The notes below the pieces were generated by a model. The model was not told the origin of the DNA and did not search any database. It saw nothing but the letters and a program-made list of their open reading frames with translations. A stretch of 64,000 bases of DNA from an uncultured Chthonomonadaceae bacterium (lineage in GTDB: Bacteria > Armatimonadota > Chthonomonadetes > Chthonomonadales > Chthonomonadaceae). The stretch's first letter is position 1. Each line of letters starts with the position of its first letter. The stretch lies in the NCBI GenBank assembly GCA_963835065.1, contig CAWIEK010000063.1:205296-269295 (forward strand), given 5' to 3'. This document shows positions 19,168-52,517 of the stretch, one piece after another. The position numbers were made by a program, and so were the translations under genes.

Positions 19168-19240
19168 AGGGTATTGGGTATCGGGTGTCGGGTGTCGGAA
19201 AGCCTATTTTCTACACCCGACACCCGACACCCGATACCCT
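19168..19240. repeat. Inverted heptamer-array element (GGGTRTC)
   Basis: (GGGTRTY)x4 ... (GAYACCC)x4 between the two tRNAs. Confidence 0.9.
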
Positions 19241-19252
19241 GCCAACCACCCC

Positions 19253-19324
19253 GCCCACATAGCTCAGAGGCAGAGCACTTCTTTGGTAAAGAAGAGGTCA
19301 TGGGTCCGATTCCCATTGTGGGCC
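19253..19324 (+). tRNA. tRNA-Thr(GGT)
   Basis: GCCCACA/TGTGGGC stem, CTTCT-TTGGTAA-AGAAG anticodon arm; CCA not encoded. Confidence 0.93.
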
Positions 19325-19421
19325 GGTTCAACTTCTGACGCGGAACCGATTCGATTGCAGCGATGCAAAGGATTATCAACAATTTCGTGCCGGAACACTT
19401 GTTTGGGAGGAGTTTGAGGAA

Positions 19422-20621
19422 ATGGGCAAAGCGAAGTTTGAGCGCAATAAGCCGCACGTAAACATTGGAACGATTGGACACGTCGATCACGGCAAAACCA
19501 GCCTGACCGCCGCCATCACCCGCATGTTGTCGGTGTACAACGGCAGCAAGGCGATGAGCTACGACGATATTGACAGCGCGCCCGAAGAGCGCGAGCGCGG
19601 CGTTACCATCAACGTCGCCCACCTGGAATACCAGACCGACGCGCGACACTACGCGCACGTTGACTGTCCGGGCCACGCCGACTACATCAAGAACATGATT
19701 ACCGGCGCGGCGCAGATGGACGGCGCGATTCTCGTGGTATCCGCCGCCGATGGCCCGATGCCGCAGACCCGCGAACACATCCTGCTGGCCCGTCAGGTCG
19801 GCGTTCCCCACATTGTCGTGTTCCTTAACAAGTGCGACATGGTGGACGATGCGGAACTGCTGGAACTGGTTGAATTGGAAGTGCGCGAACTGCTGTCCAA
19901 GTACGAGTTCGACGGCGACAGCGCGCCCGTTATTATGGGTTCCGCGACCGCCGCCCTGTCGAGCGAAGAGTTTGGGCGCGACGATCCCGGCCACAAGCCG
20001 ATCTGGGCGCTGATGGACGCGGTGGACGCGCACATCCCGACCCCGGAGCGCGAAAACGACAAGCCGTTCCTGATGAGCGTCGAAGACGTGTTCACCATCA
20101 CGGGACGCGGTACAGTTGTCACGGGACGTGTCGAGCGCGGCACGACCAAAGTGAACGACCAGGTGGAAATCGTCGGCCTGCGCCCGACCCGCGCCACCAT
20201 CGCCACCGACCTGGAGCAGTTCCACAAGAAGTGCGACATCATCTACGGGGGCGACAACGCAGGTATGCTGTTGCGCGGTATCAACCGCGCCGACGTGGAG
20301 CGCGGCCAGGTTGTTGCCAAGCCGGGAACCATCAAGCCGCATACCAAATTCCAGGGTGAGCTTTACGTCCTGACCAAAGAAGAAGGCGGACGCCACACCC
20401 CGTTCTTCACGGGCTACACGCCGCAGTTCTTCTTCCGCACAACGGACGTGACCGGCAAGATGAACCTGCCGGAAGGCGTCGAGATGGTCATGCCGGGTGA
20501 CAACATCCGCATCACGGGCGAACTGATCCAGCCCATCGCTATGGAAGAGGGTCTCCGATTCGCTGTCCGCGAAGGTGGCCGCACGGTGGGCGCGGGCGTT
20601 GTGACCAAAATCTTCGACTAA
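19422..20621 (+). CDS. tuf: Elongation factor Tu
   Basis: [36 protein letters not shown]. Confidence 0.99.
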
Positions 20622-20683
20622 TCGGTTGATTTGCGCGTAGCCGCCGGGCTTGTTTCCGGCGGCTGCGGGCATTGGATACGCAG

Positions 20684-20854
20684 ATGGCCTCAAAAGAAAC
20701 TCGCATTGTCATTAATCTGGCATGCACGGTCTGTCGTTCGCGAAACTATACGACCTCCAAGAACCGTATCAAGCATCAGGCGCGCATGGAGTTCAACAAG
20801 TATTGTCCGCGCCCGACGTGCCGCAAACATACGCTTCATCGGGAAGCGAAGTAG
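20684..20854 (+). CDS. rpmG: 50S ribosomal protein L33 (Zn-ribbon type)
   Basis: [14 protein letters not shown]...[16 protein letters not shown]; canonical gene position. Confidence 0.95.
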
Positions 20855-20928
20855 GCATTAGATATTAGGCATTAGGCATTAGGAACAGAATCAGTCTCCT
20901 AATGCCTAATATCTAATGCCTAGTGCCT
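20852..20928. repeat. Inverted heptamer-array element (TAGGCAT)
   Basis: (TAGRYAT)x4 ... (TAATGCC)x4; the first unit supplies the rpmG stop codon. Confidence 0.9.
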
Positions 20929-20933
20929 CATAT

Positions 20934-21091: not shown

Positions 21092-21205
21092 AGGTTTCAG
21101 GTTTCAGGTTTCAGGTTTCAGGCACAAGCAACTTCTATATTTGCTGTGACATCTTATGATTGAGATGTACTTCCTGAAACCTGAAACCTGAAACCTGAAA
21201 CCTGA
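21092..21205. repeat. Inverted heptamer-array element (AGGTTTC)
   Basis: (AGGTTTC)x4, 50-nt spacer, (CCTGAAA)x4. Confidence 0.95.
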
Positions 21206-21524: not shown

Positions 21525-22079
21525 ATGCAACGACAGTGGTATGCCATACATACCTATTCGGGCCACGAGAACAAGGTCAAGACCAACATCGAGCAGCGCG
21601 CCAAGACCATGAAGCTGGGCGAGAAGATCAACCGCATTCTCGTGCCGACGGAAACGGAAGTCAAGTCGCGCGCCGGCAAAGCCGGCAAGCCGTCCACCAA
21701 AGTCGAGGTAAAGCGCAAGCTGTACCCCGGCTATGTGCTGATCGAAATGGAAATGGACGACACGACGTGGTATCTGGTGAAATCCACGATTGGCGTCACC
21801 GGCTTTATTCCGCCCCCGCCCCCCGGCAACCGTCCCACGCCCCTGCCGGAGCGGGAAGTGAAAGAAATTTTGACCGCCATGGAAGGCACGGTTGCCATCC
21901 CGGTCATCAAGTACGAAAAGGGCGATGTCGTGCGCGTCACCGCCGGCCCCTTCACCGAATTTACGGGCAAAATTGAAAATGTGGAAGCGGCCAAAGAAAA
22001 ACTGAAAGTGCTGATTTCCATCTTTGGACGCGATACGCCTGTGGAACTGGATTTTTCGCAGGTGGAGAAAGTAGTTTAG
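21525..22079 (+). CDS. nusG: Transcription termination/antitermination factor NusG
   Basis: WYAIHTYSGHENKV, YPGYVL, KOW motif GPFTEFTG, IFGRDTPVELDF. Confidence 0.98.
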   Translation: MQRQWYAIHTYSGHENKVKTNIEQRAKTMKLGEKINRILVPTETEVKSRAGKAGKPSTKVEVKRKLYPGYVLIEMEMDDTTWYLVKSTIGVTGFIPPPPPGNRPTPLPEREVKEILTAMEGTVAIPVIKYEKGDVVRVTAGPFTEFTGKIENVEAAKEKLKVLISIFGRDTPVELDFSQVEKVV

Positions 22080-22081
22080 GA

Positions 22082-22203
22082 GGTAGACGGTAGACGGTAG
22101 ACGGTAGACGGTAGGAGTCTCATTCGCTAAACTTTCCTATGCTTATGTAGCGTTGCGAAAAACAGAGTTCCTGCCGTCTACCGTCTACCGTCTACCGTCT
22201 ACC
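22082..22203. repeat. Inverted heptamer-array element (GGTAGAC)
   Basis: (GGTAGAC)x4 ... (CCGTCTA)x4 between the nusG stop and the rplK RBS. Confidence 0.95.
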
Positions 22204-22222
22204 CCTCTGAAAGAGGACTCTC

Positions 22223-22645
22223 ATGGCAAAAAAGATTACCGCCGTCGTCAAGCTGCAAATTGCCGCAGGCAAGGCGACGCCCGCTCCCCCCGTCGGCTCC
22301 ACGCTTGGCCCTTACGGCATCAATATGATGGAGTTCATCAAGGGCTATAACGAGAAGACGGCTGCGCAGGTCGGTTCGATTATCCCGGTGGAAATCACGA
22401 TCTTTGAAGACCGCTCGTTTACGTTTGTTACCAAAACGCCGCCCGCCGCCGACCTGATTAAGAAAATGGCGGCGGCGGCCAAAGGTTCCGGGCGTCCCAA
22501 CCGCGAAAAGGTGGGCAGCCTGACTCAAGAGCAAATCCGCCAGATCGCCGAGCAGAAAATGCCCGATTTGAACGCCAACGACATCGAAGGCGCGATGAAG
22601 ATCATTGCCGGCACGGCGCGTTCGATGGGGGTAGATGTTGCGTAG
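22223..22645 (+). CDS. rplK: 50S ribosomal protein L11
   Basis: [26 protein letters not shown]. Confidence 0.99.
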
Positions 22646-22774
22646 GTGTTCAGGTATTCAGGTATTCGGGTGTTCAGGACAATGCCGCATGGAAGTAAGT
22701 TGTGTGGGATGCACAAACTTATAATGAAGGATGTATTTACCTGAATACCCGAACACCTGAACACCTGAACACCT
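22644..22774. repeat. Inverted octamer-array element (AGGTRTTC)
   Basis: (RGGTRTTC)x4, about 60-nt spacer, (CCYGAAYA)x4. Confidence 0.92.
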
Positions 22775-22794
22775 GCCTGGAAAGGAGCGCCCGC

Positions 22795-23208
22795 ATGGTT
22801 GTTTCCTCTGCTGCCGTAAGTTTGATTGTGCTTAGTCTGTTTGCCATGTTCTGGATGGCGATACGTGAGCGCGTCACGCGTCTGGATGCCAGATTGCCCT
22901 ATCATCAGGCCGCCTATCAGCAGGATCGCCGCAAGGGGCGCTTTTATTTCAAGTCGGTGTGGACAGGGCTGCTGTCCGCGTTTGCGGGCATGGCCTGCCT
23001 GCAAGTGATGGCAAATACCCTGCTCAACGCCAACAACACCCGCAATGTCGTCAACGGCGCGGCCTATGGATTGGGGTTGTGGGGATTGCTGGTAATCGGC
23101 CTGGTCTGGTCGCAAATCGGCCAGCGCACCCTGGAACCCAATTCCGACGGCAAGATGCTGACACCGACCGAGGAAAGGCATAAGGCACAAGATAAAAGGC
23201 AAAAGTAG
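22795..23208 (+). CDS. Hypothetical membrane protein (3 predicted TM helices) inserted between rplK and rplA
   Basis: AAAGGAG RBS, 137-aa ORF with three hydrophobic segments. Confidence 0.7.
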   Translation: MVVSSAAVSLIVLSLFAMFWMAIRERVTRLDARLPYHQAAYQQDRRKGRFYFKSVWTGLLSAFAGMACLQVMANTLLNANNTRNVVNGAAYGLGLWGLLVIGLVWSQIGQRTLEPNSDGKMLTPTEERHKAQDKRQK

Positions 23209-23263
23209 TCAGTAAATTGTACTTTTATCTTATATCTTTTGCCTTCTATCTTATGCCTTGTAT
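23175..23263. repeat. Degenerate inverted heptamer-array element (AAGGCAY/AAGATAA)
   Basis: AAGGCAT AAGGCAC AAGATAA AAGGCAA ... CTTTTAT CTTATAT CTTTTGC CTTCTAT CTTATGC CTTGTAT. Confidence 0.8.
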
Positions 23264-27817: not shown

Positions 27818-27934
27818 GAATGATGAATGATGAATGATGAATACAGTTCCACGCTGACTTATCTGCAAATCGGCTGAAGAAACGTCCGCACTCATTGTTT
27901 TCCACTCATCACTCATCATTCATCATTCATCATT
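27818..27934. repeat. Inverted heptamer-array element (GAATGAT)
   Basis: (GAATGAT)x3.5, 60-nt spacer, (CAYTCAT)x4.5. Confidence 0.9.
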
Positions 27935-28986: not shown

Positions 28987-29114
28987 AAAGTAGTCAGTAG
29001 CCAGTAGTCAGTAGTCAGTAGTAATGCTTGACTACTCATAATTTTGCATCATAAACATAATTTCCAATAGCCGGGTTCTCTACTGACTACTGACTACTGG
29101 CTACTGACTACTTT
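28987..29114. repeat. Inverted heptamer-array element (AGTAGTC), perfect 35-bp arms
   Basis: AAAGTAGTCAGTAGCCAGTAGTCAGTAGTCAGTAG and its exact reverse complement; 58-nt spacer. Confidence 0.97.
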
Positions 29115-30867: not shown

Positions 30868-30913
30868 GTGGGATCGTTCAGATAAGTTCAGGTAAGCGCC
30901 GTGAGTTGAAACT

Positions 30914-34553: not shown

Positions 34554-36373
34554 ATGAGCCTCCAAACTCCACAACTTCAGATGAACCGTATGGGAGGAAC
34601 GCGCGCATCCTCCGATGCCCTGAGCGCCAAACTGCAACAGGCGCGACGGCGCATCCGCAGCCTGATGCTGCTGCGCTTTGGGTCGCTCGGCCTGCTGCTG
34701 TCCGCTCTGACCGCGCTTGTGCTTGTCGGATTGGGCAAAACGCATGTTATCGAACTGGCTGCGCCCCCGATGTTAGGACTGCTGATCGGCGTTGGCGTTG
34801 CCATTGGCTTCGCGTTCGCCTTTTGGCCGCGCTTGACGGACGTGGATGTTGCAAAACTGACGGAACGCCGCGCCGACTTGAAGGAGCGTTTGAGCAGCGC
34901 AGTCGAGTTTCAGCATCAAGGGGTTGACGCAGCCGCCCCCTTCTTTAAGGAGCAATGGACGGACGCCAATGTCCACGCGCAGGGCATCAGCATCCCCGCC
35001 CTGTTTCCCGTTCGCGTTCCCCGTACCTTTTATGGCGGCCTGATCCTGGCACTGCTGCTGTTCGGCGCGTTTTTCCTGCCCAATCTGCCCGTGTTCTGGT
35101 CCAAAGAGCGCAAAAAGGATTTGGAAGATGTGAAAGTGGCGGCGATTGCCATCCAAAAGGTTGCGGAAGACACGGAAAAATCCGCCGATACGCAAAAACT
35201 GGACGAAGCCAAAAAAGCCGCGCAGGATGTGAAGGCGCTTACCAACAAAATGAAGATGGGCAAATTGGAAAAGAAGCCCGCCCTGCTTGCCATGTCCAAG
35301 CTGACGCAGAAACTGGAGGAGCAAAAGCAGAAACTGGAAACCGGCCTGCCCAAAAAGTCTATGGACGATGCCGCCAAACAGTTCAAGCAGTCGCTGGACA
35401 AAATGCAGCAGGATGTGGAAAAGTCGCAGCAGGACAAGCAGGCTAACGCCGCCAAACCGCAAACCAAAAACGGCCAAAAGCCAATGGACAAAACCGCGCA
35501 GAACAACCCCGCCAACAAGCCCAACGAAGCCATGAAGCAGATGCAGCAGGCGCTTCAAAAAATGCAGCAGGCCATGCAGATGAACGATACGTCGCAAATG
35601 CAGATGGCGATGGAAAAGATGGCGCAGCAGATGCAGCAGAACGGGCGCAAATGACGCCGCAGCAAATGCAGCAGATGCAGCAGGCATTAGCCCAACTGTC
35701 GCAAGCCCTGCAAAATACGGAAATGCAGCAAATGTCGGAGCAGATGCAGCAGCTTGCGCAGCAAATGCAGCAGATGCAGGGGCAGATGTCGCCGGAGCAG
35801 ATGCAGCAACTCGCGAACGCGCTCAAGAAAATGGCCGGCCTGGCAAAAAACCCCGGCAAAGGCATGGCAAAAGGCCAATTGGACGCCAAAGCGCTGGAAG
35901 AACTGTTGCAGGCGCTCAAGGATGGCAAGCTGACGATGTGCATGGGGCAGGGAAACAAACCCGGCTTCGGGGGCAAAGGACCGGGCAAAGGCTTCGGCGG
36001 GCAGGGCGACCTGAAAAACCCCATGAAAGACCCCGGCGTCACCAAAGCCGAACTGCTCGTCGCCAACAAAAGCCAGTGGAGCAAGGCAGCCGGCAAGCAG
36101 GGCGACCCCAAGAAGTTTGCCGAGTACCTCGCCATGTCGTCCAAACCGTCCAAACACGCCCCGAACGGCATGGTGATGGGAACCCGGACGCAGCAGGGCG
36201 ACGAACTCCAACTCAACATGACTGGCGATCCCGACCCGACCCAGAGCAGCTCGCCCTACTACAAAGCCTACGAAACCAGCAAAAAGCAGGCGGAAAGCAC
36301 CCTGGACAAAGAAGCCGTCCCCGCCGCCTACAAAAAGCAGGTGAAGGATTATTTTGATAGTATTCATCCTTGA
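34554..36373 (+). CDS. Membrane-anchored Gln/Met/Lys-rich coiled-coil protein (frameshift near 35650)
   Basis: TM segments, LKERLSSAVEF, long coiled coil; C-terminal VPAAYKKQVKDYF typical of MoxR-associated proteins. Confidence 0.8.
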
Positions 36374-36500
36374 AGTAGTCAGTAGTCAGTAGTCAGTAGT
36401 CAGTAGAGAACCTCCTTCTATTAGCTGGTGTCACAATGAACAAGACTTTGAGTAAGCAGGCATTTCTACTGACTACTGACTACTGACTACTGACTACTTC
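36372..36500. repeat. Inverted heptamer-array element (AGTAGTC), perfect 35-bp arms
   Basis: (AGTAGTC)x4.7, 59-nt spacer, (GACTACT)x4.7. Confidence 0.97.
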
Positions 36501-41634: not shown

Positions 41635-42594
41635 TTGGAAAACACGCGCCATCTTTTAATGGGAATAGCAACGCTGGCAGGCGCATGGCTGACGCTGAAT
41701 GTGCCCGCCGCGCTTTGCGCCCGCGCCGAACCGCCTGTCCCCCGCGTTGTCACCACATTCGCGTACAGCCCGGCTCCTGACCGGGGCATGCCCCTCGTCC
41801 GCGTACGCCTGAACAACGGACACCGCAATACCGCGTCGGCGGCCTTTGTGCTGGATACGGGCTTTACGGCAAGCTTGATGACCGACCGATTGGCGCAGGA
41901 ATTGAACATGGAGGGCGAACCGGCCCACTTCGCGGATGGCTCCCCGGCCTGCTTCGCCGATGGCAAGCCCTTGCGGCAGGTCACGGCGGGTCTGCTGATG
42001 GGCAGCCTGCAAACGGATGCGCGCAATTTTCTGGTAGTGAAAGCCTATCGGCTGGATTTGCTCGATTGTCCTCTGGATGGGGTTTTGGGAGGGGATTTTC
42101 TGGCGAATTATGCGGTTCTGTTTGATTTTCGAACGCATACGGTGACGCTGTGGCAGGGCGGGGATTTGACGGAAGCGGAGCGGCGAAGTGTCAACATGCA
42201 GGATGCTGTTACGCTTCCCCGCGCTAACAAAACACCGGAAAGTTTTGACGTCCGCGTCCGTTTAAGCAGCCCGCGCGGACAAAGAGACGTGACATTGGCA
42301 ATAGACACGGGCGGGACGCGCACATTGATTGCTCCACAGGACGCCCGCGCCCTGGAACTGGAACCGACCCGCATAGCCGTGCCGCAGCGTACCGTCTTCG
42401 GAAATTTGAAAGCAAACGAGGCAAAAATTCCTGCCCTGGAATTCGGAAGCATCCGCATTTCCGACTTGCCCGTACGCTATCTGGTGCAGGAACACCCCAA
42501 TATGCCGCCGCATCTGGGCCTCGATGTGCTTTCCCACTACCGCCTGCTCCTGGATTATCCCGCCAACAGGCTTTATCTCAAACCCAACGGGTAG
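41635..42594 (+). CDS. Secreted aspartyl protease with two retropepsin-like lobes
   Basis: FVLDTGF and LAIDTGG; DGVLGGDFL and HLGLDVL. Confidence 0.85.
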   Translation: MENTRHLLMGIATLAGAWLTLNVPAALCARAEPPVPRVVTTFAYSPAPDRGMPLVRVRLNNGHRNTASAAFVLDTGFTASLMTDRLAQELNMEGEPAHFADGSPACFADGKPLRQVTAGLLMGSLQTDARNFLVVKAYRLDLLDCPLDGVLGGDFLANYAVLFDFRTHTVTLWQGGDLTEAERRSVNMQDAVTLPRANKTPESFDVRVRLSSPRGQRDVTLAIDTGGTRTLIAPQDARALELEPTRIAVPQRTVFGNLKANEAKIPALEFGSIRISDLPVRYLVQEHPNMPPHLGLDVLSHYRLLLDYPANRLYLKPNG

Positions 42595-42712
42595 GGTTCA
42601 GGTGTCAGGTTTCAGGTTTCAGGAAATGCTCTGCTGTTGCTCTTAATATCATAGTAACAACAAAGCGATGAAAGCATGGTCCCTGACACCTGAAACCTGA
42701 CACCTGACGCCT
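42593..42712. repeat. Inverted heptamer-array element (AGGTKTC) between convergent genes
   Basis: (AGGKKTC)x4, 58-nt spacer, (CCTGAMA)x4. Confidence 0.92.
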
Positions 42713-42715
42713 CCC

Positions 42716-43858
42716 CTACCGCCACTGCACCCCCGCCGACACGCTAAAATCCGGGCCGATATTGCTGAACGCGGGCAGATGGTAATTGTGGATGTCGCCG
42801 TTTTCGGAAAACGAGAGGGTGAGCAAATGGTGGCGATCCAGCACCCGGCGGTAACCGAAGGTTGCGGTAGACTGCCAGCCATCCGCAAAGCGGTTGCCGG
42901 TACGAACCACGCGGGTATTGCCATCCAGTTGCAGGACAAAACTATCGCGGTTGTTGGCGCGGTATTCCAGCGCGGCCAGCGTTTGCAGCGTGTTCGGCTC
43001 CGCGACAGGAACCCGACTTGCGTGTCCCAACAGCGCGCCGCCCACATTGGCGTACACGATAATGTCGCGTCCCAGGCTGTATTGCCCATCCACGCTCACG
43101 CCCACATCCACATTGCCACTGCCCATCAGCAGCGTCGGGTTGCCCGTCGGCAGTTTCAATCCGGCGCGCAGGGCAAGGGCGGCGCGGCCATTGGGCCGAA
43201 GCAGGCCACGCTTGATCGTGATATTGGTTTCGCCCAATCCGAACGCGCTGCCCTGATTAACCACAACCTGCCCATTCGCGTTCGCCAGAAACAGCGTGCT
43301 CTGGTACTTCCGGTAAAAATCGCGCCCGGCGGGATTGTCTTCGCCGTCGCCCTGAAACCCGAAAAGGCTATGGTAGCCGCTCAGGATGCCGTCCAGAATG
43401 CCGCCGTTGCGCCATTGCAGCGGAATGGAAATGCCAAGTTCCGTTTGCCGCCCCAGCCCTCGCTTCCACGCGAACGCCACGCGCTGATACTCATTGTCTT
43501 CCCGCACCTGCGCCCGCCCCTTGGAAGCCGGAATCAGCAGATTGTTGCTGATTTCCAATTGCAGGTTATAGGCGTTGGCGCGGGCCGGCAGCGCAACGGC
43601 TGTTTCCGGCGCAAACTGGAGAAACAGCAGATTGTACGGGCGCGCGTCCCGAACCGGAATCGGCCCGCGCGGATTGCCGTACAGCGGATTGTCGCCCGCG
43701 CCCTGCGCCTGGCAGAAGGCAGAAGACAGAAGGCAGAAGACAGAAGGCAGAAGACAGAAGGCAGAAGGCAGAAGACGGAAGATGGAAGATGAAAGATGTA
43801 AGATGAAGCGTACAAGGCGAATTGCGCAAGGCAAGAGTTGTTTGAAGCGCGATGGCAT
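42716..43858 (-). CDS. Outer-membrane beta-barrel protein (DUF3187-like)
   Basis: GPIPVRDARP, GGILDGILSGYH, LKLPTGN..GSGNVD, FSENGD...PDFS, aromatic C-terminus. Confidence 0.7.
   Translation of the reverse strand: MPSRFKQLLPCAIRLVRFILHLSSSIFRLLPSAFCLLPSVFCLLSSAFCQAQGAGDNPLYGNPRGPIPVRDARPYNLLFLQFAPETAVALPARANAYNLQLEISNNLLIPASKGRAQVREDNEYQRVAFAWKRGLGRQTELGISIPLQWRNGGILDGILSGYHSLFGFQGDGEDNPAGRDFYRKYQSTLFLANANGQVVVNQGSAFGLGETNITIKRGLLRPNGRAALALRAGLKLPTGNPTLLMGSGNVDVGVSVDGQYSLGRDIIVYANVGGALLGHASRVPVAEPNTLQTLAALEYRANNRDSFVLQLDGNTRVVRTGNRFADGWQSTATFGYRRVLDRHHLLTLSFSENGDIHNYHLPAFSNIGPDFSVSAGVQWR
43711..43808. repeat. 14-unit heptamer array within a signal-peptide coding region
   Basis: GRCAGAA x9 grading in phase into GACGGAA, GATGGAA, GATGAAA, GATGTAA, GATGAAG. 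Confidence 0.95.
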
Positions 43859-45037: not shown

Positions 45038-47095
45038 ATGTCTGAATACTCTCTAAGTGAGAACCGAGCCAATTACGCGCCCCAAAAAACGGAGGCCGCA
45101 GCAGGAGGGAATATGGAAGTACAAACCAGAGAAGCGCAATCTAAAGGCGCGCGGCCGGAACAGGGAAGTTCTCCCTCGCCCTTGCGCTCCGCCGAGGCTT
45201 TCGATAGTTACTGCGTACAGGTGCAAAGCCGTCTCGCCGAACATGCGGCGCAGCGCATTCATTTTTTACAATCCGCTTTTGAACGCTTGACGCGCCTGCT
45301 GCACACGGCGCGCGATGTAGAAGATACTTCGCTTTATAACGAACTCTGGCAGCACCGCGTTGCCGTGCGCGAACTGTTGGAGGCGCTCACGCAGGTTGGC
45401 AGTTCCGTTACAGCCGTTGCTACTTCCACTGCTTCCGCTTCCGCCGCTGTTTCCCCTGCTCCCCCCGCCTCCGGCCTGAGCCACGCGGACAGCGGTTTGG
45501 CCGGCAACAAAGCCCCTTCCAGTACGCCTCTTTATTCCCCTTCCGCTTCCTCTCCCGCCATTGCGGACAAAACAGGTTTGGACAAAACAGGGAATGACAC
45601 TGCGGCTTCCACATCAGGAACAACGTATCCTGCCGTTCCCCTGCCTGCCAAGTCCCTGCCGCATCCCTCCGGCGCGGCCAATGGACACGCGCAGCGCGAC
45701 CCGGAAATGGACGAGAATGACGAGCGCTCTTCGCCCAATTCCCGCGACTACAACAGGGACGGCCAATATGACAACAGAATGGAACCGGCCCCGCGTCCCC
45801 TGCGCCATCCTGTCCGCCCGCTGATGGACATCGAAACGGATGCCGTGGAACTGCGTAAGCAATTACAGGATTGGGCGAACCGCTTCCCCCTGCGAACCGC
45901 TTCCGGCAATCTGCACGTGCCCAACTGCCTGCGCCTGCGGGCGATGGCCTGCCGTCAGCGCCGCTTGGAAGAAGAAGCCGGCGATACGGAAGTGGAGGAA
46001 GTGACCGAATTAAGCAAAGATATTGTAGATATTTTAGATCGCGCGGGCGATGAAGAATACACGGTTGCGCTGGATTACGACGTAGAGCCGCCGCCCACAG
46101 CATTCCAGTGGGGCGAACTGGCCGAGCGCTATGATGAAACGGCGATGGCGGAAGAAGCGTTCGAGTGGTGGGTTGCCAACCGCGCCATTCTGTCGGTTTC
46201 TGACGTGCAGCAGTTAGCCGAGTCCGTTGCGGCCATTCAGCAGCGGTTTAATCGCCTCCTGTTCCGCATTGGAGCGCGCGACCCGTTCCAGCAGCAATTA
46301 TTTGATGACCTGCGCGTGTGGGCTAAAGAAGCGCAGTGTTACCTGTACAGCCTCCGCCCCAAAGTGCCGATTGCGGAACTGATTGAAAAAGCGCAGATGA
46401 TTGACGAAGCATGGGAGCAGGCGCGCGAACCCGTGCGCGCGCTGGAAGAGCGGCAGCAAAGCGTAGACGCGGTTGTAGATATGGTAGCCGCGCCCGGATT
46501 TGGCGAAAACGAGGCCGAGGACGAATCACGCTTGCAGGCCGCGCTGATGCACTGCCGCGAATTGCGTATTCCCGCGTCCGACCGGCGATTGCGCGACGCG
46601 TTGCTGCCCTGGGCGGCGTTCCTGGAAGGCGACGAGCGTTTCAAAGAATTACTGCGCGAAATCAATCTGGAATGGGAGCGGCGTCAGGAAATCGGACGCC
46701 CCGAAGCCGTAGAGGAAGAGCCGTCCGGCGCTCTGGACGAACTGGCGGCGGAACTGGAAGCCGTGCGCGAAGTGACGCGAGGCAAGCGCTGCCTGCTGCT
46801 GGGCGGAACGTGCCGCGAGGAGAACCGCCGCAAGATCGAGGAAGCGCTGCAATTGTCCGAACTGGTCTGGCCCAGCACCAAGCCGTCCGACCCGCTTTCC
46901 AAATTTGACACGGAACTGCGCCATTCCGATATTTGCGCCCTGCTCACGCGCTTTTCCCGCAAGGAATGGAAGAACGCGCAGGACATTTGCGCCCGCGATG
47001 GTAAAAAGTTCGTGCATCTGACAACGGGCTACGGCGTGTCGCAGGTGGTTCGCCACTTCTACACGCAAATCGCGCCGCAGAAGGCGGGAAGTTGA
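45038..47095 (+). CDS. Large helical hypothetical protein with C-terminal DUF2325-like domain
   Basis: Long ORF with typical codon bias; C-terminal GKRCLLLGG...LLTRFSRK...KFVHLTTGYGVSQV. Confidence 0.7.
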   Translation: MSEYSLSENRANYAPQKTEAAAGGNMEVQTREAQSKGARPEQGSSPSPLRSAEAFDSYCVQVQSRLAEHAAQRIHFLQSAFERLTRLLHTARDVEDTSLYNELWQHRVAVRELLEALTQVGSSVTAVATSTASASAAVSPAPPASGLSHADSGLAGNKAPSSTPLYSPSASSPAIADKTGLDKTGNDTAASTSGTTYPAVPLPAKSLPHPSGAANGHAQRDPEMDENDERSSPNSRDYNRDGQYDNRMEPAPRPLRHPVRPLMDIETDAVELRKQLQDWANRFPLRTASGNLHVPNCLRLRAMACRQRRLEEEAGDTEVEEVTELSKDIVDILDRAGDEEYTVALDYDVEPPPTAFQWGELAERYDETAMAEEAFEWWVANRAILSVSDVQQLAESVAAIQQRFNRLLFRIGARDPFQQQLFDDLRVWAKEAQCYLYSLRPKVPIAELIEKAQMIDEAWEQAREPVRALEERQQSVDAVVDMVAAPGFGENEAEDESRLQAALMHCRELRIPASDRRLRDALLPWAAFLEGDERFKELLREINLEWERRQEIGRPEAVEEEPSGALDELAAELEAVREVTRGKRCLLLGGTCREENRRKIEEALQLSELVWPSTKPSDPLSKFDTELRHSDICALLTRFSRKEWKNAQDICARDGKKFVHLTTGYGVSQVVRHFYTQIAPQKAGS

Positions 47096-47202
47096 TAGTT
47101 TGTAGTTGATAGTTGATAGTTGATAGCTCGAAGTTCCTGTAGCGCTATCAACCGTCAGCTGGCAGCGAATAACTATCAACTATCAACTACAAACTATCAA
47201 CT
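47090..47202. repeat. Inverted heptamer-array element (AGTTGAT), 32-bp perfect arms
   Basis: AGTTGATAGTTTGTAGTTGATAGTTGATAGTT and its reverse complement; contains the upstream TGA and abuts the downstream ATG. Confidence 0.95.
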
Positions 47203-48645
47203 ATGATAAACGCTAACGCTTTTCAAGGGTCTTTGCGCAATGCCGTGCTTGTGCCATTGCTGGGACTGTTTCTGCTGGTCGCCATTCTGTTTTTTCAGGT
47301 AAGCAATCTGATGGAGGCCGCGCGTTGGACGGATCACACCTATCAAGTGATTCTGGAAGCGCGTTCGCTGCGCCTCGCCATTCAGCGTATGCAAAATGCC
47401 GAGCAGGATTACCTGCTGGCGCATGAGAAAACCTATCAAGGCCAGTACGCGCAGGCCAGATCCGACGCGAAACTTGATATTGAACATTTATTGGGGCTGG
47501 TTGTGGACAATCCGCCGCAAGTGGCGCGGATGCAAACCATCAACAGCGGTTTCGACCGTTGGCAGGCGAATGCGCAGACTGAGAAGGTTTACGATCCGAA
47601 CCACGATTACCGCGCAATGCTGGCGCAGCGGCAAAGCGCGGTAAATAGCCTGGACGCGCAGCTCAACGAATTTCGCGGCGTGGAAGAGAAACTGCTTGTG
47701 GAGCGCACAGAGGCGACGCGAAATGCGGCGCATACAACGCGGACGGTGGTAGCCGCGCTTGCTCTGCTTTTGGGCGTTGTGATGGCAATCTTCATTCGGC
47801 GGCAGTTGGTCACGCTCGCCGGCAGCTATCAGGGCGCGCTCAGTTCGGTGCAGGAACAGGCCGATGCCCTGCGCCGCAATAGTGAGGAGATTCATCGCAA
47901 CAGCGAGGAGATCAAAGCCTTAAACGCCACGCTCGAACAGCGCGTGTTGGAACGCACGGCGCAGTTGGAAGCGTCTAATAAGGAACTCGAAGCCTTCAGC
48001 TATTCCGTTTCGCACGACCTGCGCGCGCCCCTGCGCAGCATTGACGGCTTCAGTCAGGCGCTGATGGAAGATTACGGCGACGTGATTGACGCAGAGGGCA
48101 AGAAATATCTGGATCGCCTGCGCAACAACAGCCGCCAGATGGCCGGTCTGATTGACGATCTGCTGGCGCTGTCGCGCCTGACGCGGGCGGAAATGAAGCG
48201 TGTTCCCGTAGATGTAAGCGCGTTGGCGCGGAGCGTGGCGGAAGAATTGCGCCAGCGCGACCCGGAACGCAAAATTACCATCACGGTTGCCGATAATCTA
48301 AACGCGGAGGGCGACGAGCGGCTGCTGCATGTCGCCCTGGAGAATTTACTTGGCAACGCCTGGAAGTTCACGTCGAAAACGCCCGACGCGGTGATTGAAG
48401 TGGGGCAGGAAGCGCAGGACGGGCAAACCGTATTCTTTATACGCGACAACGGCGCGGGCTTCGACATGGCGTATGCCGACAAGCTGTTCGGCGCGTTTCA
48501 GCGGCTGCACGGCGTCAGCGAGTTCGAGGGAACCGGCATCGGGCTGGCAACGGTGCAGCGCGTGATACGACGGCACGGCGGGCGCATCTGGGCAAAGGGC
48601 GAAGTCGGCAAAGGCGCGACGTTCTACTTTACGCTGAGCGTTTGA
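47203..48645 (+). CDS. CHASE3 sensor histidine kinase
   Basis: WTDHTYQV...LVVDNPPQ (CHASE3); FSYSVSHDLRAPLR; NAWKF; DNGAGF; GTGIGL. Confidence 0.93.
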   Translation: MINANAFQGSLRNAVLVPLLGLFLLVAILFFQVSNLMEAARWTDHTYQVILEARSLRLAIQRMQNAEQDYLLAHEKTYQGQYAQARSDAKLDIEHLLGLVVDNPPQVARMQTINSGFDRWQANAQTEKVYDPNHDYRAMLAQRQSAVNSLDAQLNEFRGVEEKLLVERTEATRNAAHTTRTVVAALALLLGVVMAIFIRRQLVTLAGSYQGALSSVQEQADALRRNSEEIHRNSEEIKALNATLEQRVLERTAQLEASNKELEAFSYSVSHDLRAPLRSIDGFSQALMEDYGDVIDAEGKKYLDRLRNNSRQMAGLIDDLLALSRLTRAEMKRVPVDVSALARSVAEELRQRDPERKITITVADNLNAEGDERLLHVALENLLGNAWKFTSKTPDAVIEVGQEAQDGQTVFFIRDNGAGFDMAYADKLFGAFQRLHGVSEFEGTGIGLATVQRVIRRHGGRIWAKGEVGKGATFYFTLSV

Positions 48646-48647
48646 GA

Positions 48648-48745
48648 AGTTGATAGTTGATAGTTGATAGAGACGCGCGGACGGTTAGCTGAACGCCCAT
48701 CCTGTCAGAAGTACCGATGTTACTATCAACTATCAACTATCAACT
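48648..48745. repeat. Inverted heptamer-array element (AGTTGAT)
   Basis: (AGTTGAT)x3, 52-nt spacer, (CTATCAA)x3. Confidence 0.92.
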
Positions 48746-48759
48746 ACATTGAGGGCCGC

Positions 48760-50660: not shown

Positions 50661-50705
50661 CACCCAACACCGAATACCTGAACACCTGAACACCCGAATA
50701 CCGAA
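50649..50705. repeat. Solo (unpaired) 7/8-mer array
   Basis: CCCAACA CCTGACA CCCAACA CCGAATA CCTGAACA CCTGAACA CCCGAATA. Confidence 0.8.
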
Positions 50706-50718
50706 GGAATGAACACTA

Positions 50719-51012
50719 ATGGTAGAACATATTGTTTTGTTTCGCTGGAACGCCGATGCCGCGCTCGACGCTATCGAAAGCGCCTTGACCGAGTTGCGCG
50801 GCCTGCAAACGAAAATTCCCGGTATCCTTGACCTGACCTGCGGCGCGAATTTTACCGACCGGGGCAAGGACTTCACGCACGGGCTGGTGGTACGCTTCAC
50901 GGACAAAGCCGCGCTTGAGGCTTATGGCCCGCACCCGGAACATCAGCGCGTGGTTCAGAACTTCATCAATCCCATCCGCGCCGACATTCTCGCCTTCGAT
51001 TTTGAAGCCTGA
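50719..51012 (+). CDS. Dabb family stress-responsive A/B barrel protein
   Basis: HIVLFRW, IPGI, FTHGLVVRF, YGPHPEH. Confidence 0.9.
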   Translation: MVEHIVLFRWNADAALDAIESALTELRGLQTKIPGILDLTCGANFTDRGKDFTHGLVVRFTDKAALEAYGPHPEHQRVVQNFINPIRADILAFDFEA

Positions 51013-51075
51013 ATGTTTCCTGCCCACCTTCGATTGAAGGCGTAAACGCTTCCCGAATGGCCTGTTGTACCCGCA

Positions 51076-52218
51076 ATGAAAATTCTTTACCGCTATATGC
51101 TGCGCGAAATGGCTGTGCCGTTTCTCATCGGGCTGGGCGGCGTCGTGATGATGCTGACCGGCTCCGTGTTGTATAACAACGCCGACACGTTTCTGCAAAA
51201 CCAGATTCCCATCAGCTATGTGGCGCGATTGGCGCTGTATTTCGTGCCGTTCCTCATCAACATGACGATGCCCGTCGGCATGGCGGTTGCCGCGTCGCTT
51301 GCCGTCAGCCGCATGGCGCGGGACTCGGAAATCACGGTTTTGCGCGCGTCGGGAGCCAGCCTGGTACGCATTTTTATGCCGATTTTCGTGGCGGGCGCGC
51401 TGGTCAGCATTGCCGATTTTTACTGGGGCGAGTACGTGGTTCCGGCCTCGTTCACGCGCTTCAACGCCGTGATGAACGAATTGCCCGCCCACATCAAGCA
51501 GCTCGCGCCGCCAAGCGGGGAATACATCATCTCCTCCGATCAGAGCTACGTCATCGGCGTCCGCAACATCATCCAAAAACCCGGCTATCTGGAATTGCGC
51601 GGCATTCACATCGACTCCGGCTTCCGCTCCTTTTACGCGGCGGAAGCGCAGCCGTTCGTGCTGTCGGCGGACAAGGGGGAGTACCGGTCAGGCAAGTGGA
51701 TACTCAACGACGCGCAAGTGTATACGTACAGCGTCAAAGACTCGCGGGATTGGGCGCGGGGCAGCGCGCATCGTATCATTAAAACCATCAACGTAGACCC
51801 ACAATCCTTTTCCAGCAACTTCGTGCTGCAATTGCCGATGGGCAAGATGGCGGGCAAATCTACGGAAACGTTCGCCCAGCTCGGCGAGGAAATCCGCGCC
51901 AACCGACGTATCGGCGCGTCCGACGTTTCCGCCGAACTGGATTACCACTTCAAGCTGTCCGTGCCGTTTTCGTGCCTGGTCATGGCCTTATGCTGCCCTC
52001 CGATGGCCCTGCGCTTCGCCAAGGGCGGTGGCTTCATGGGAACGCTGCTGTCCATTTGCCTGGTCTTCGTGTATTGGAACACGCTGCTGCTCGCCCGCAT
52101 GTTGGGTTCCGCCGGACCGGGCGGCAGCGCGCCCCTGCTTTCCCCGCATGTCGCCGCCTGGTCGCAAAACGTGCTGTTCGTCGTCCTGGGCATCATCGTG
52201 CTGAAGAAAAGCGAATGA
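51076..52218 (+). CDS. LptF/LptG family permease
   Basis: YRYMLREM, RMARDSEITVLRASGAS, KLSVPFSCL, AAWSQN. Confidence 0.9.
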   Translation: MKILYRYMLREMAVPFLIGLGGVVMMLTGSVLYNNADTFLQNQIPISYVARLALYFVPFLINMTMPVGMAVAASLAVSRMARDSEITVLRASGASLVRIFMPIFVAGALVSIADFYWGEYVVPASFTRFNAVMNELPAHIKQLAPPSGEYIISSDQSYVIGVRNIIQKPGYLELRGIHIDSGFRSFYAAEAQPFVLSADKGEYRSGKWILNDAQVYTYSVKDSRDWARGSAHRIIKTINVDPQSFSSNFVLQLPMGKMAGKSTETFAQLGEEIRANRRIGASDVSAELDYHFKLSVPFSCLVMALCCPPMALRFAKGGGFMGTLLSICLVFVYWNTLLLARMLGSAGPGGSAPLLSPHVAAWSQNVLFVVLGIIVLKKSE

Positions 52219-52236
52219 TGAACCACCCGCTGCGCT

Positions 52237-52517
52237 AGAGACACAGAGGCACAAAGGAAGAAGGGGAGAAGAGGAGAGATAGGAACCGCGAAACACACGA
52301 ACCAAAACGAAAAAAGAAAACAAAAAAACCGCAAAGGGGCAAAGGCAGCAAAGAAAAACGTAGGGATAATCCGTATGAGGCCAATGTTGGGAACGGTGAT
52401 TGCGTAAGGAAGACTTGCCAGTCTGCTGTTTTCGGTTATTTTCTTTGCGTGACTTTGCCTCTTTGCGGTTTTTCTCTCCTTTTCTCCTCTTCTCCTTTTC
52501 TCCTTTTCTTCTCTTCC
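52237..52517. repeat. Nested composite of inverted 8/9-mer arrays
   Basis: AACCGCAAAGGGGCAAAGGCAGCAAAG mirrored by CTTTGCGTGACTTTGCCTCTTTGCGGTT, inside GAAGRGGA / TCCTYTTC arrays. Confidence 0.75.

What the first reader, a model, noticed from the sequence alone, without database searches (positions are those of the whole stretch)
19168..52517. Family of inverted heptamer-array elements punctuating operons: candidate undescribed mobile or RNA-processing system
Seen: at least 12 paired elements (19168, 20852, 21092, 22082, 22644, 23175, 27818, 28987, 36372, 42593, 47090, 48648). Each is 3-6 tandem 7-mers (one 8-mer), a spacer of mostly 45-60 nt (12-15 nt in three), then the reverse-complement array. 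Units differ (GGGTRTC, TAGGCAT, AGGTTTC, GGTAGAC, AAGGCAY, GAATGAT, AGTAGTC, AGTTGAT) but loosely fit N-Y-R-G-N-Y-R, and the G-rich arm is always 5'. Elements typically begin at or inside a stop codon and end just before the next RBS or ATG, even in the essential tuf-rplA cluster. Architecture is conserved while sequence is not, which simple slippage does not explain. Known: cyanobacterial STRR heptamers are similar. My unverified recollection is that such arrays flank four-helix-bundle genes elsewhere; none is in this window. Inference: non-autonomous elements, or 25-35 bp RNA stems that are processed.
Basis: partly seen in the sequence, partly recalled or inferred. Interest (0 to 1): 0.85.

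Follow-up and report, generated by a model that had tools for sequence, protein, structure and literature searches.

The report
Heptamer-armed hairpin cassettes between genes
The gaps between many genes of this soil bacterium are filled by long hairpins whose two arms are runs of a 7-base repeat; they are real, multi-copy and come and go between strains, and are gene-less miniatures of a little-studied stem-loop cassette better known from ribosomal RNA intervening sequences.

Summary
All 12 listed loci, and a 13th at 52324-52473, are inverted tandem 7/8-mer arrays that fold into long hairpins.

Genome-wide I count at least 528 such pairs and 1129 solo arrays. The G-rich arm is 5' in 524 of 528 and never 3'. 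In co-directional gene gaps the element starts a median 2 nt after the stop codon and ends a median 23 nt before the next start.

They behave as copied, gained and lost elements:
- Identical irregular arms occur at unrelated loci.
- A 134-nt element (nusG/rplK) is missing in two sister species and in a ~98%-identical metagenomic strain.
- No arrays were seen in samples from 36 of 37 more distant relatives.

All three four-helix-bundle (PF05635, Avd-like) genes of this genome sit inside the same kind of arms, as do 11 of 11 in relatives and 32 of 80 across phyla.

The best reading is gene-less miniatures of S23p/IVS-type stem-loop cassettes, probably cut by RNase III as RNA. How they move is unknown.

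This is a new variant of known heptamer repeats (Xanthomonas, STRR, Coxiella IVS). The scan has already reported the same phenomenon on other DNA: 62 earlier findings matched my word search.

The parts
19168..19240 (.). Hairpin element between tRNA-Tyr and tRNA-Thr. Arms are GGGTATY/GGGTGTC x4; short loop.
   Evidence: I9; z -12.0. G002 has a different unit at this site and G001 is empty.
20852..20928 (.). Hairpin element that starts on the rpmG stop codon TAG and ends before tRNA-Trp. Arms are TAGGCAT, with a mirrored TAGATAT variant.
   Evidence: I16, I23; z -8.3. G002 and G001 are filled with other units.
21092..21205 (.). Hairpin element upstream of secE. Arms are AGGTTTC x4.4; 50-nt loop.
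   Evidence: I8; z -13.7. In a ~98%-identical metagenome contig the arms are unchanged, while the loop carries 7 substitutions and 2 indels.
22078..22211 (.). A 134-nt element between nusG and rplK (arms GGTAGAC x4.7 at 22082-22116 and 22169-22203). It is strain-specific.
   Evidence: I6; z -13.2. The site is empty in G002 and G001 and in contigs of runs X1 and X3, which join 22077 to 22212. The loop has no other copy in the genome.
22644..22775 (.). Hairpin element that starts on the rplK stop codon. Arms are 8-mers, AGGTRTTC x4.4.
   Evidence: I5; z -11.0. G002 has 8-mers TAGGTTGT here and G001 has TTGYTTG.
23174..23263 (.). Degenerate hairpin element before rplA (units AAAGGCA/TAAGGCA; short loop).
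   Evidence: z -5.9. G002 is filled with GAGATAS units.
27818..27934 (.). Hairpin element between the ABC-2 permease and ABC ATPase genes. Arms are GAATGAT.
   Evidence: z -5.0. The site is empty in G002, where the stop codon overlaps the RBS.
28987..29114 (.). AGTAGTC-family element with a mirrored AGTAGCC variant and a 58-nt loop.
   Evidence: I4; z -12.0. G002 has a short GGTAGAT hairpin at this site.
36372..36500 (.). AGTAGTC-family element with perfect 36-nt arms and a 57-nt loop.
   Evidence: I2; z -10.4. The site is empty in G002.
42589..42716 (.). Hairpin element between convergent genes. Arms are AGGTTTC/AGGTGTC.
   Evidence: I7; z -9.4. The state in G002 is unclear.
47090..47204 (.). 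AGTTGAT-family element. The upstream stop TGA lies in its first unit, and the next ATG directly follows the 3' arm.
   Evidence: I3; z -10.2. G002 is filled with GTGGTTG units.
48648..48746 (.). AGTTGAT-family element between the histidine kinase and response regulator genes.
   Evidence: z -8.1. G002 has a 36-nt spacer with no element.
52324..52473 (.). Arms are GCAAAGG-type, 35 nt and 80% complementary; 80-nt loop.
   Evidence: I13; z -8.5.
52475..52509 (+). Solo C/T-rich 8-mer array (TCTCCTTT x4.4) just upstream of the next gene's start.
   Evidence: It fits the genome-wide rule that C-rich solo arrays sit near start codons.
43711..43805 (.). Long solo arrays (GGCAGAA/GACAGAA about 10 copies, then GGAAGAT 5 copies). 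They read as C-rich at the 5' end of the minus-strand DUF3187 gene.

Best explanation
The window elements are copies of a genome-wide family of IVS-like stem-loop cassettes, with at least 528 paired copies.

Anatomy. Each has a 20-35 bp stem built from tandem 7-nt (about 10% 8-nt) units, with the G-rich arm always 5'. The loop is one of two kinds: an AT-rich, poorly conserved stretch of about 57 nt (the miniature form, which is all the window holds), or a small four-helix-bundle S23p/Avd-like gene (three full cassettes elsewhere in the genome).

Likely nature. They are most likely selfish DNA that is copied to new sites by an unknown mechanism. They settle at the boundaries of transcribed units, from a stop codon or tRNA 3' end up to the next ribosome-binding site. 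They are tolerated there for two reasons: the arms supply stop codons, and the self-complementary insert folds out of the transcript, so stop and next start stay close in space.

As RNA, the roughly 30-bp stems should be cut by RNase III, as shown for the S23p-carrying IVS of Coxiella. Arms are kept complementary and change in concert. Loops are scrambled or replaced much faster than the flanks.

Shown: anatomy, abundance, polarity, placement, gain and loss, family structure, the link to four-helix-bundle genes, and restriction to a lineage.
Inferred: selfishness, tolerance through folding, RNase III cleavage, and the way the elements move.
For: Abundance and polarity: there are 1772 period-7 arrays against 40, 47 and 9 for periods 5, 6 and 9. 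There are 528 pairs, and the G-rich arm is 5' in 524 and 3' in 0.

Placement: 397 of 528 pairs lie between co-directional genes, 60 between convergent genes, 28 between divergent genes, 37 in genes and 6 at contig edges. The background gaps number 4782, 894 and 888. Elements start a median +2 nt after the stop (IQR -2 to +7) and end a median 23 nt before the next start. The upstream stop is TAG in 219 of 397, against 1173 of 4262 genome-wide.

Copying:
- 48 AGTAGTC-family loops align to one asymmetric consensus, in both orientations.
- The same irregular arm pattern occurs at 6 or more unrelated loci.
- 153 of 311 loops match another loop better than any shuffled control does, and about 5 near-identical loop pairs have unrelated flanks.
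- Neighbouring elements share a unit family in 38 of 284 cases, against a null of 20.4 +/- 4.2.

Gain and loss:
- The nusG/rplK element is absent in G002 and G001 and in ~98%-identical contigs of two runs.
- Of 20 G000 sites compared with G002, 5 are empty, 11 hold a different unit, 3 hold the same or nearly the same unit, and 1 is unclear.
- Array density is 21 per 64 kb in the window, 14 per 131 kb in G002, 2 per 104 kb in G001 and 3 per 20 kb in G023. It is 0 in samples of 36 other relatives.

Four-helix-bundle link:
- 3 of 3 PF05635 genes in G000 lie between inverted arrays, and one carries AGTAGTC arms.
- 11 of 11 loci examined in relatives have such arms.
- Across phyla, 32 of 80 loci have arms scoring 16 or more, against 0 of 80 controls; all 32 have the G-rich arm 5'.
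- In viral contigs, 5 of 8 loci score 19 or more.

RNA side: all 13 window hairpins fold far better than shuffles. The genome has an RNase III gene. The Coxiella IVS has a 28-bp stem, tandem GACAGAT heptamers and RNase III cuts within the stem (PMC4990558, passages).

Arm co-evolution: 204 deviations from the unit consensus are mirrored in both arms, against 437 in one arm only. About 4 mirrored deviations would be expected by chance.
Against: - No enzyme for movement was found. The two full Y1 transposase genes are not flanked by arrays, and the two reverse transcriptases belong to a CRISPR adaptation module and to a BRCT/SWIM operon.
- The loop of the most recent insertion has no donor copy in the assembly.
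- Junctions show only 2-3 nt of possible target duplication at two sites and none that can be resolved at two others.
- The inner ends of the AGTAGTC four-helix-bundle cassette are not similar to the miniature loops: scores of 16 and 19 against a null mean of 17.8. The miniature-cassette link therefore rests on shared arms and architecture alone.
- Site occupancy is conserved between species (14 of 19 resolvable sites filled in G002). One r-protein junction is filled in four genomes with four different units. Both facts could mean host function rather than selfishness.
- The arm-pairing statistics use arms that were defined by their complementarity, which biases them towards pairing.
- The gene calls are my own crude ones.
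Confidence: 0.6

Rival explanations
1. Host-selected operon punctuation. The hairpins are kept because they do something useful on the transcript. They could be RNase III processing sites that separate cistrons and tRNAs, 3'-end protecting stems, or devices that hold the upstream stop codon next to the following start so that translation stays coupled.
For: - 14 of 19 resolvable G000 sites are also filled in G002 even though units and loops differ. The L6/L18 junction is filled in G000, G002, G001 and G023 with four different units.
- Arms keep pairing through mirrored changes.
- Elements sit in the tuf-rplA and S8-L6-L18 clusters.
- At 47090 the stop codon is in the first unit and the next ATG abuts the 3' arm.
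Against: - The nusG/rplK element is missing from a ~98%-identical strain and from both sister species, which have an 8-nt gap there.
- No arrays were found in samples of 36 related genomes that have the same operons.
- Loop orientation relative to the gene is random: 19 same and 17 opposite.
- Loops have no consensus structure.
Confidence: 0.22
2. A local by-product of replication. Each array arises in place by slippage of a 7-nt seed next to the stop codon. The second arm arises by template switching (inverted duplication). Nothing moves between sites.
For: - Orthologous sites carry different units in sister species: 11 of 20.
- Unit changes spread through a whole array and both arms, for example AGATAAG in G000 against AGATACG in G002.
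- Copy number is always small, at 3-6.
- An excess of heptamers among bacterial repeats is noted in the literature (PMC4692102, passages).
Against: - A complete 134-nt element with standard arms is present or absent as a single block.
- 64 elements share AGTAGTC arms and a common loop consensus.
- Identical irregular arms occur at unrelated loci.
- The same arms enclose a gene.
Confidence: 0.1
3. A REP/REPIN-type family moved by a RAYT (Y1) transposase, or classical MITEs derived from an insertion sequence.
For: The elements are extragenic palindromic doublets with a less conserved spacer, which resembles REPINs (PMC3116915 seen only in a search listing; the REPIN features are recalled). Four Y1_Tnp matches exist, two of them full length.
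Against: - The Y1 genes at C42 and C51 have no arrays beside them.
- No consistent target duplication was found.
- No transposase shares the arms.
- Arms are tandem repeats with dozens of different units, not one conserved REP.
Confidence: 0.05
4. Intrinsic (Rho-independent) transcription terminators.
For: They are stable stem-loops placed after stop codons.
Against: - Only 21 of 397 elements in co-directional gaps have a run of 4 or more T within 12 nt after the 3' arm.
- Stems of 25-35 bp with 57-nt loops are unlike terminators.
- Elements lie inside ribosomal-protein operons and between tRNAs.
Confidence: 0.03

Closest known systems
GGGAATC heptamer repeats of Xanthomonas campestris / X. 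axonopodis and GGGGAYT of Nostoc PCC 7120 (Rehm et al. 2015, PMC4692102; passages read)
   Same: - Tandem 7-nt units, mostly about 4 copies.
- Found between aligned ORFs and rare between divergent ones.
- G-rich strand on the sense side within 50 bp after the stop codon; the complementary strand within 50 bp before an ORF.
- 70-75 convergent (inverted) pairs per genome.
- The closest solved structure to this genome's four-helix-bundle protein is XCC0516 of X. campestris (2GSC, E 1.5e-18).
   Different: - There it is one G-tract unit, read as a G-quadruplex former. Here there are more than 40 different units, and most lack G-runs.
- There are roughly seven times more pairs here.
- No loop family, gain/loss or link to four-helix-bundle genes appears in the passages I read.
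23S rRNA intervening sequence carrying an S23p ORF (Coxiella burnetii IVS; Warrier et al. 2016, PMC4990558; passages read)
   Same: - Terminal inverted repeats form a stem of about 28 bp around a PF05635-type ORF.
- Tandem heptamers (GACAGAT, 2-3 copies, varying between strains) sit in the 5' stem region.
- It is regarded as a selfish element.
- RNase III cuts within the stem in vitro.
   Different: - It lies in helix 45 of 23S rRNA as a single copy. Here the cassettes lie in mRNA and tRNA spacers.
- Here the family is dominated by hundreds of ORF-less miniatures.
- RNase III cutting was not tested here.
STRR (short tandemly repeated repetitive) heptamers of heterocystous cyanobacteria (recalled; the Calothrix heptanucleotides are mentioned in PMC4692102)
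   Same: Intergenic tandem heptamers with several unit families per genome.
   Different: STRR were described as direct arrays. Paired arms, loop families and gene-boundary placement are not part of the definition as I recall it.
TAACTGA direct repeats of Beggiatoaceae, cyanobacteria and Bacteroidetes (MacGregor 2015, PMC4679880; passages read)
   Same: - Intergenic 7-nt tandem repeats of 2-6 copies with orientation-dependent placement close to start codons.
- Stop codons in all frames.
- Patchy phylogenetic spread.
   Different: - There is a single unit, and almost all sets are direct (1 inverted set among 170).
- They are placed upstream of starts rather than filling the stop-to-start gap.
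REPINs (REP doublets forming hairpins) moved by RAYTs (PMC3116915; search listing only, details recalled)
   Same: Extragenic hairpin doublets of about 100 nt, with conserved arms, a less conserved spacer and within-genome families.
   Different: - Arms here are tandem repeats of many unit types.
- No RAYT is associated with them.

Membership tests
Bacterial intergenic heptamer tandem repeats (Xanthomonas/Nostoc/STRR type) | Tandem 7-nt units, 3 or more copies, in strong excess over other periods | tested here: met
   1772 arrays of period 7, against 40 (period 5), 47 (period 6), 212 (period 8) and 9 (period 9).
Bacterial intergenic heptamer tandem repeats (Xanthomonas/Nostoc/STRR type) | Preferred between aligned ORFs and rare between divergent ORFs; G-rich strand on the sense side near the stop, complementary strand near the start | tested here: met
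   Pairs: 397 co-directional, 60 convergent, 28 divergent. Solo G-rich arrays sit a median 11 nt from the stop. Solo C-rich arrays sit a median 60 nt from the start.
Bacterial intergenic heptamer tandem repeats (Xanthomonas/Nostoc/STRR type) | G-tract units able to form G-quadruplexes (Rehm et al.) | tested here: not met
   The commonest units (AGGCATT, AGTAGTC, AGTTGAT, AGGTTTC) have no GGG tract.
S23p/four-helix-bundle IVS-type stem-loop cassette | PF05635 ORF in the loop | tested here: not met
   None of the 13 window elements has it; their loops are 5-80 nt. Three cassettes elsewhere in the genome do have it. The window copies can therefore only be ORF-less derivatives.
S23p/four-helix-bundle IVS-type stem-loop cassette | Terminal inverted repeats forming a stem of about 28 bp, with tandem heptamers in the stem | tested here: met
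   Arms have a median length of 27.5 nt. The feature holds for 3 of 3 own cassettes, 11 of 11 in relatives and 32 of 80 across phyla.
S23p/four-helix-bundle IVS-type stem-loop cassette | Inserted in helix 25 or 45 of 23S rRNA | tested here: not met
   Window and genome copies lie after stop codons or tRNAs. I did not look at the rRNA operons of this genome.
S23p/four-helix-bundle IVS-type stem-loop cassette | Excised from the transcript by RNase III | not testable with these tools
   An RNase III gene is present. No RNA run is listed.
REPIN / RAYT | A Y1 (RAYT) gene flanked by the same repeats | tested here: not met
   The Y1 genes at C42:76421-76894 and C51:103020-103442 have no array adjacent.
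MITE | Fixed-length target-site duplication and a parent IS with the same terminal repeats | tested here: inconclusive
   A 2-nt (AG) and a possible 3-nt (TCC) duplication at two filled/empty pairs; two other pairs are unresolvable. The only longer relatives carry a four-helix-bundle gene, not a transposase.
Intrinsic terminator | Stem-loop followed by a U-tract | tested here: not met
   21 of 397 have a run of 4 or more T within 12 nt.

The most novel reading that the evidence does not exclude
The heptamer arms are the recognition arrays of the Avd-like four-helix-bundle pentamer. Cassette plus miniatures would then form a distinct class of mobile element. It would home to gene boundaries and to already occupied hairpin sites, overwrite the resident arms, and rewrite the loop each time through a break-repair or RNA/cDNA step. 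That would explain three things at once: why the same junctions stay occupied across genera, why units differ between species, and why loops are scrambled while flanks stay 84-88% identical.
Probability: 0.15. Interest if true: 0.85.

Novelty: new variant of a known kind. Interest (0 to 1): 0.6.

Why it matters
Bacterial heptamer repeats (STRR since about 1990, Xanthomonas in 2015) and the S23p/IVS protein family are two old loose ends. This genome shows both in one frame: hundreds of hairpins with heptamer arms, some of them carrying the four-helix-bundle gene.

It offers unusually clean material for study:
- presence/absence differences between near-identical strains;
- sister species with very different loads;
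- insertions inside essential operons.

If the elements are cut by RNase III, they fragment many polycistronic transcripts of this organism. If they move by a new route linked to an Avd-like protein, that route is unknown biology.

The practical consequence is for annotation. Stop codons, C-termini and starts next to these arrays are often supplied by the element, and contig breaks and mis-assemblies are likely there.

Tried and rejected
- Rfam at gathering thresholds on the whole window found only three tRNAs and nothing on the elements.
- RNAalifold on 47 aligned AGTAGTC-family loops gave no consensus structure beyond the arms. Loops on their own are only weakly structured: mean z -0.69, and 16% below -2.
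- Loop orientation against gene direction showed no bias: 19 to 17, p 0.87.
- An nhmmer profile of the loop found only 52 hits, 42 of them inside my element list. It is too weak to census the family.
- The search for a donor of the nusG/rplK insert found that only the arms match elsewhere.
- Comparing the inner ends of the C8 four-helix-bundle cassette with the miniature loops showed no similarity above shuffles.
- The reverse-transcriptase link was a lead only. Five AGTAGTC elements lie within 6 kb of the two RT genes. One RT is part of an RT-Cas1/Cas2/Cas6 module that merely adjoins a ribosomal-protein operon, and the other sits in a BRCT/SWIM operon.
- No RNA holder was listed for the window DNA, so expression and processing could not be examined.
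- Short-sided joints at 27842-27906 and 22672-22744 in the laid contigs probably come from other loci or organisms with the same arms. I did not use them.
- The C43/C69 pair, which looked like a fast-evolving loop, proved nearly identical once aligned properly.
- Protein Atlas on NusG gave no usable taxonomy. The DUF1559/N-methyl genes only hint at a Planctomycetota- or Armatimonadota-like lineage, which is an inference.
- Literature searches turned up no paper, among the listings and passages I read, that describes heptamer-armed cassettes with and without the four-helix-bundle gene as one mobile class. Subscription journals are not covered.

Full report

The inverted-repeat scan reports arms of 31-40 nt at 84-100% complementarity. 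It also shows a 13th pair at 52324-52473.

Folded as RNA, all 13 form one long hairpin. Energies run from -33.8 to -87.6 kcal/mol and z-scores from -5.0 to -13.7, and 0 of 200 shuffles fold as well. Only the 22644 element uses 8-mers.

Rfam finds nothing on the elements.

The gene map around them is: tRNA-Tyr | element | tRNA-Thr, tuf, rpmG | element | tRNA-Trp ... element | secE, nusG | element | rplK | element | ORF | element | rplA. After that come ABC-transporter, MoxR, two-component and LptF/G genes, each pair separated by an element.

**2. Is it more than chance?**

The window lies in an 8.0-Mb, 71-contig assembly. My array finder gives 1772 arrays of period 7 with 3 or more copies. Periods 5, 6, 8 and 9 give 40, 47, 212 and 9.

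I searched for a reverse-complement partner within 260 nt of each of 1978 period-7/8 arrays. The score distribution is bimodal, and it yields 528 pairs and 1129 solo arrays.

This detector missed 2 of the 12 window pairs, the two most degenerate ones. So 528 is a lower bound. The pairs cover 59 kb, or 0.74% of the genome.

- The loop-length distribution peaks at 55-60 nt.
- Median arm length is 27.5 nt.
- The 5' arm has more G than C in 524 of 528 pairs, equal numbers in 4, and fewer in 0.

An inverted repeat reads the same on both strands. This polarity is therefore a property of the element, not of the strand or of the direction of transcription.

**3. Where do they sit?**

I made crude gene calls (6635 genes). 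With these, 397 of 528 pairs lie between co-directional genes, 60 between convergent genes, 28 between divergent genes, 37 mostly inside a called gene and 6 at contig edges. The background is 4782, 894 and 888 gaps.

- In the co-directional gaps the element starts a median 2 nt after the upstream stop (IQR -2 to +7).
- It ends a median 23 nt before the next start (IQR 13-56).
- The upstream stop is TAG in 219 of 397, against 1173 of 4262 genome-wide. This fits units such as TAGGCAT, AGTAGTC and GGTAGAC supplying the stop.
- Only 21 of 397 are followed by a T-run, so they are not ordinary terminators.

Solo arrays obey the same rule. G-rich (sense) arrays sit a median 11 nt from the stop, and C-rich arrays a median 60 nt from the next start. 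This is the arrangement Rehm et al. describe for Xanthomonas (PMC4692102, passages).

**4. Families and copying**

More than 40 unit types occur. The commonest are AGGCATT (94 pairs), AGTAGTC (64), AGTTGAT (47) and AGGTTTC (34).

- The loops of 48 AGTAGTC elements are 52-60 nt long. They align to one asymmetric consensus, with 29 of the 48 in reverse orientation.
- The same loop type occurs with other arm units.
- A sub-family with one identical irregular arm pattern is found at 6 or more unrelated loci.
- Of 311 loops of 45-70 nt, 153 match another loop better than the best shuffled control. Near-identical loops with unrelated flanks are few, about 5 pairs. The other near-identical pairs lie in duplicated contig stretches.
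- Neighbouring elements less than 10 kb apart share a unit family in 38 of 284 cases, against 20.4 +/- 4.2 in 2000 label permutations with a maximum of 35.
- Loop orientation is unrelated to gene direction: 19 same, 17 opposite.
- Loops have no consensus structure, are 44% G+C, and are only weakly structured.

**5. Gain, loss and turnover**

In sister species G002 (about 86% DNA identity here), nusG is followed by TTTAG|AGGACTCTCATG. G000 has 134 extra bases exactly there, and G001 lacks the element too.

Contigs of two metagenome runs are about 98% identical to the window. They join 22077 to 22212 with a 2-nt overlap and long sides. So the element differs between near-identical strains.

The loop of this insert has no other copy in the assembly, although its arms have many.

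I compared 20 G000 sites with G002. Twelve were in the window and eight in the secY/rpoA and S8-L6-L18 region.

| State in G002 | Sites |
|---|---|
| Empty | 5 |
| Filled, different unit | 11 |
| Filled, same or one-base-different unit | 3 |
| Unclear | 1 |

At the three same-unit sites the loops are 50%, 51% and 65% identical. Shuffled controls average 47-52%, and the flanks are 84-88% identical.

In the ~98% strain, the 21092 element keeps both arms unchanged, but its 50-nt loop carries 7 substitutions and 2 indels.

Deviations from the unit consensus are mirrored in both arms 204 times and sit in one arm only 437 times. About 4 mirrored cases would be expected by chance. The arms were defined by their pairing, which inflates this figure.

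So sites persist, arms are kept paired and change in concert or are overwritten, and loops are scrambled or replaced. I cannot tell hypermutation from replacement.

**6. Distribution**

The three-unit AGTAGTC pattern occurs 142 times in G000 and 3 times in G001. It does not occur in 39 other relatives.

| Genome | Period-7/8 arrays | DNA sampled |
|---|---|---|
| G000 (window) | 21 | 64 kb |
| G002 | 14 | 131 kb |
| G001 | 2 | 104 kb |
| G023 (another genus) | 3 | 20 kb |
| 36 further relatives | 0 | 2-20 kb each |

These are small samples, so the correct wording is 'not found in those sampled'.

**7. The four-helix-bundle link**

The scan's earlier notes pointed to S23p/four-helix-bundle cassettes and to Rehm et al. 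I tested both leads.

- G000 has three PF05635 genes.
- Each lies between inverted arrays that start at the stop codon of the upstream host gene, and each is co-oriented with that gene. One has AGTAGTC arms, including a variant unit also seen in miniatures. One has AGGGAAC/AGGTTAC arms. One has 8-mers, AGAAAAGG.
- PF05635 occurs in 21 of 41 genomes of the order. All 11 loci I examined in relatives have inverted tandem arms scoring 18 or more, with controls at 10 or less.
- Of 80 loci from many phyla, 32 have arms scoring 16 or more, against 0 of 80 in the control. Nineteen have clear period 7, mostly AGGAGTC/AGAAGTC/AGAATTC units, and all 32 have the G-rich arm 5'.
- Five of 8 viral-contig loci score 19 or more.
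- The protein matches the pentameric XCC0516 of Xanthomonas (2GSC, E 1.5e-18).
- PF05635 is considered Avd-like (PMC10053308, passages).

The inner ends of the AGTAGTC cassette show no similarity to the miniature loops. The miniature-cassette relation therefore rests on arms and architecture.

**8. What is in print**

- Warrier et al. describe the Coxiella IVS as a selfish 428-nt element with a 28-bp terminal stem and an S23p ORF. It has two or three tandem GACAGAT heptamers upstream of the ORF, and RNase III cuts in the stem (PMC4990558, passages).
- Rehm et al. describe 70-75 convergent GGGAATC pairs per Xanthomonas genome near stop codons.
- MacGregor describes TAACTGA direct repeats.
- Five searches gave no paper, in the listings and passages I read, that unites these as one class with ORF-less miniatures.

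**9. How it most likely works**

*Shown:* the anatomy, placement, polarity, copying, gain and loss, and the gene link.

*Inferred:*
- The elements are selfish stem-loop cassettes.
- They are tolerated at gene boundaries because the arms bring stop codons in every frame (7 and 8 are not multiples of 3), and because the insert folds away, leaving stop and next start adjacent at the foot of the stem.
- The roughly 30-bp RNA stems are RNase III substrates. The enzyme's gene is present.
- The G-rich 5' polarity may come from the cassette's own need for a Shine-Dalgarno-like purine arm ahead of its ORF, since AGGAG is part of the commonest unit across phyla. This last point is my inference only.

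No mobilising enzyme was found. The Y1 genes are not flanked by arrays, and the two reverse transcriptases belong to other systems.

A host function in processing or translational coupling remains a serious rival, because junction occupancy is conserved across species and even genera.

**10. Verdict**

It is a more diverse, loop-bearing variant of published heptamer repeats and of the S23p IVS, and this scan has already reported it on other DNA.

Noticed in passing
window 30899-31029: A different, non-heptamer palindromic repeat: 51-nt arms, 86% complementary, 131 nt in all. It is multi-copy in the genome (43 BLAST segments on several contigs, some 93-95% identical over the full length). It sits just upstream of a gene that is not at this position in G002.
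   Followed up: partly
window 24380-24439: A perfect 25-nt-arm palindrome (10 nt between the arms) inside a longer imperfect inverted repeat at 24343-24523. It gives 22 BLAST segments in the genome.
   Followed up: partly
window 31067-33982: A 971-aa ORF that joins a peptidase M28 domain to an aminoglycoside 3-N-acetyltransferase (Antibiotic_NAT) domain. In G002 the matching DNA lies on another contig, so about 3.7 kb is extra at this site in G000.
   Followed up: partly
window 38615-39412, 40099-41193, 44139-44858: Three DUF1559/N-methyl prepilin-like paralogues. Their first ~170 nt match more than 100 places in each sister genome at 75-90% DNA identity. In the 44139 gene, a CCCAACA/CCGAATA array lies inside the predicted leader peptide, directly before the FTLIELL motif.
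   Followed up: partly
window 39506-39540 and 40067-40101: The same irregular CTATCAA array occurs twice in direct orientation, 560 nt apart. The two copies flank a small ORF (39573-39890) and a terminator-like hairpin.
   Followed up: no
G000:C49:679200-683450 (locus L105): A CRISPR adaptation module with a reverse transcriptase beside Cas1, plus Cas2 and Cas6. It directly adjoins the S8-L6-L18 ribosomal-protein genes, whose junctions each carry a hairpin element.
   Followed up: partly
G000:C50:52482-56503 (locus L104): A reverse-transcriptase gene (475 aa) lies downstream of a 663-aa SWIM/BRCT protein gene, with DUF433 and PIN-like genes after it. AGTAGTC elements separate the first genes. 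It may be a defence operon.
   Followed up: partly
G000:C3:220001-224033: Two AGGCATT elements whose loops are 98% identical, in inverted orientation 3.9 kb apart, bracket four co-directional genes.
   Followed up: no
G000 contig pairs C27/C29, C49/C51, C26/C62, C43/C69: Stretches with elements and flanks that are 97-100% identical occur on two contigs each. This is either assembly redundancy or a strain mixture. It slightly inflates the copy counts.
   Followed up: partly
G000:C5:28566, C37:219948 and similar: Nested structures: AGGGAAC arms enclose a CTATCAA array. These two units are also the commonest solo arrays (193 and 124). Of the solo arrays, 541 fall inside my called genes, spread evenly along them. 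I did not resolve whether those are true coding repeats or false gene calls.
   Followed up: no
window 6369-6490: A 60-nt unit repeated twice in tandem (76% matches).
   Followed up: no
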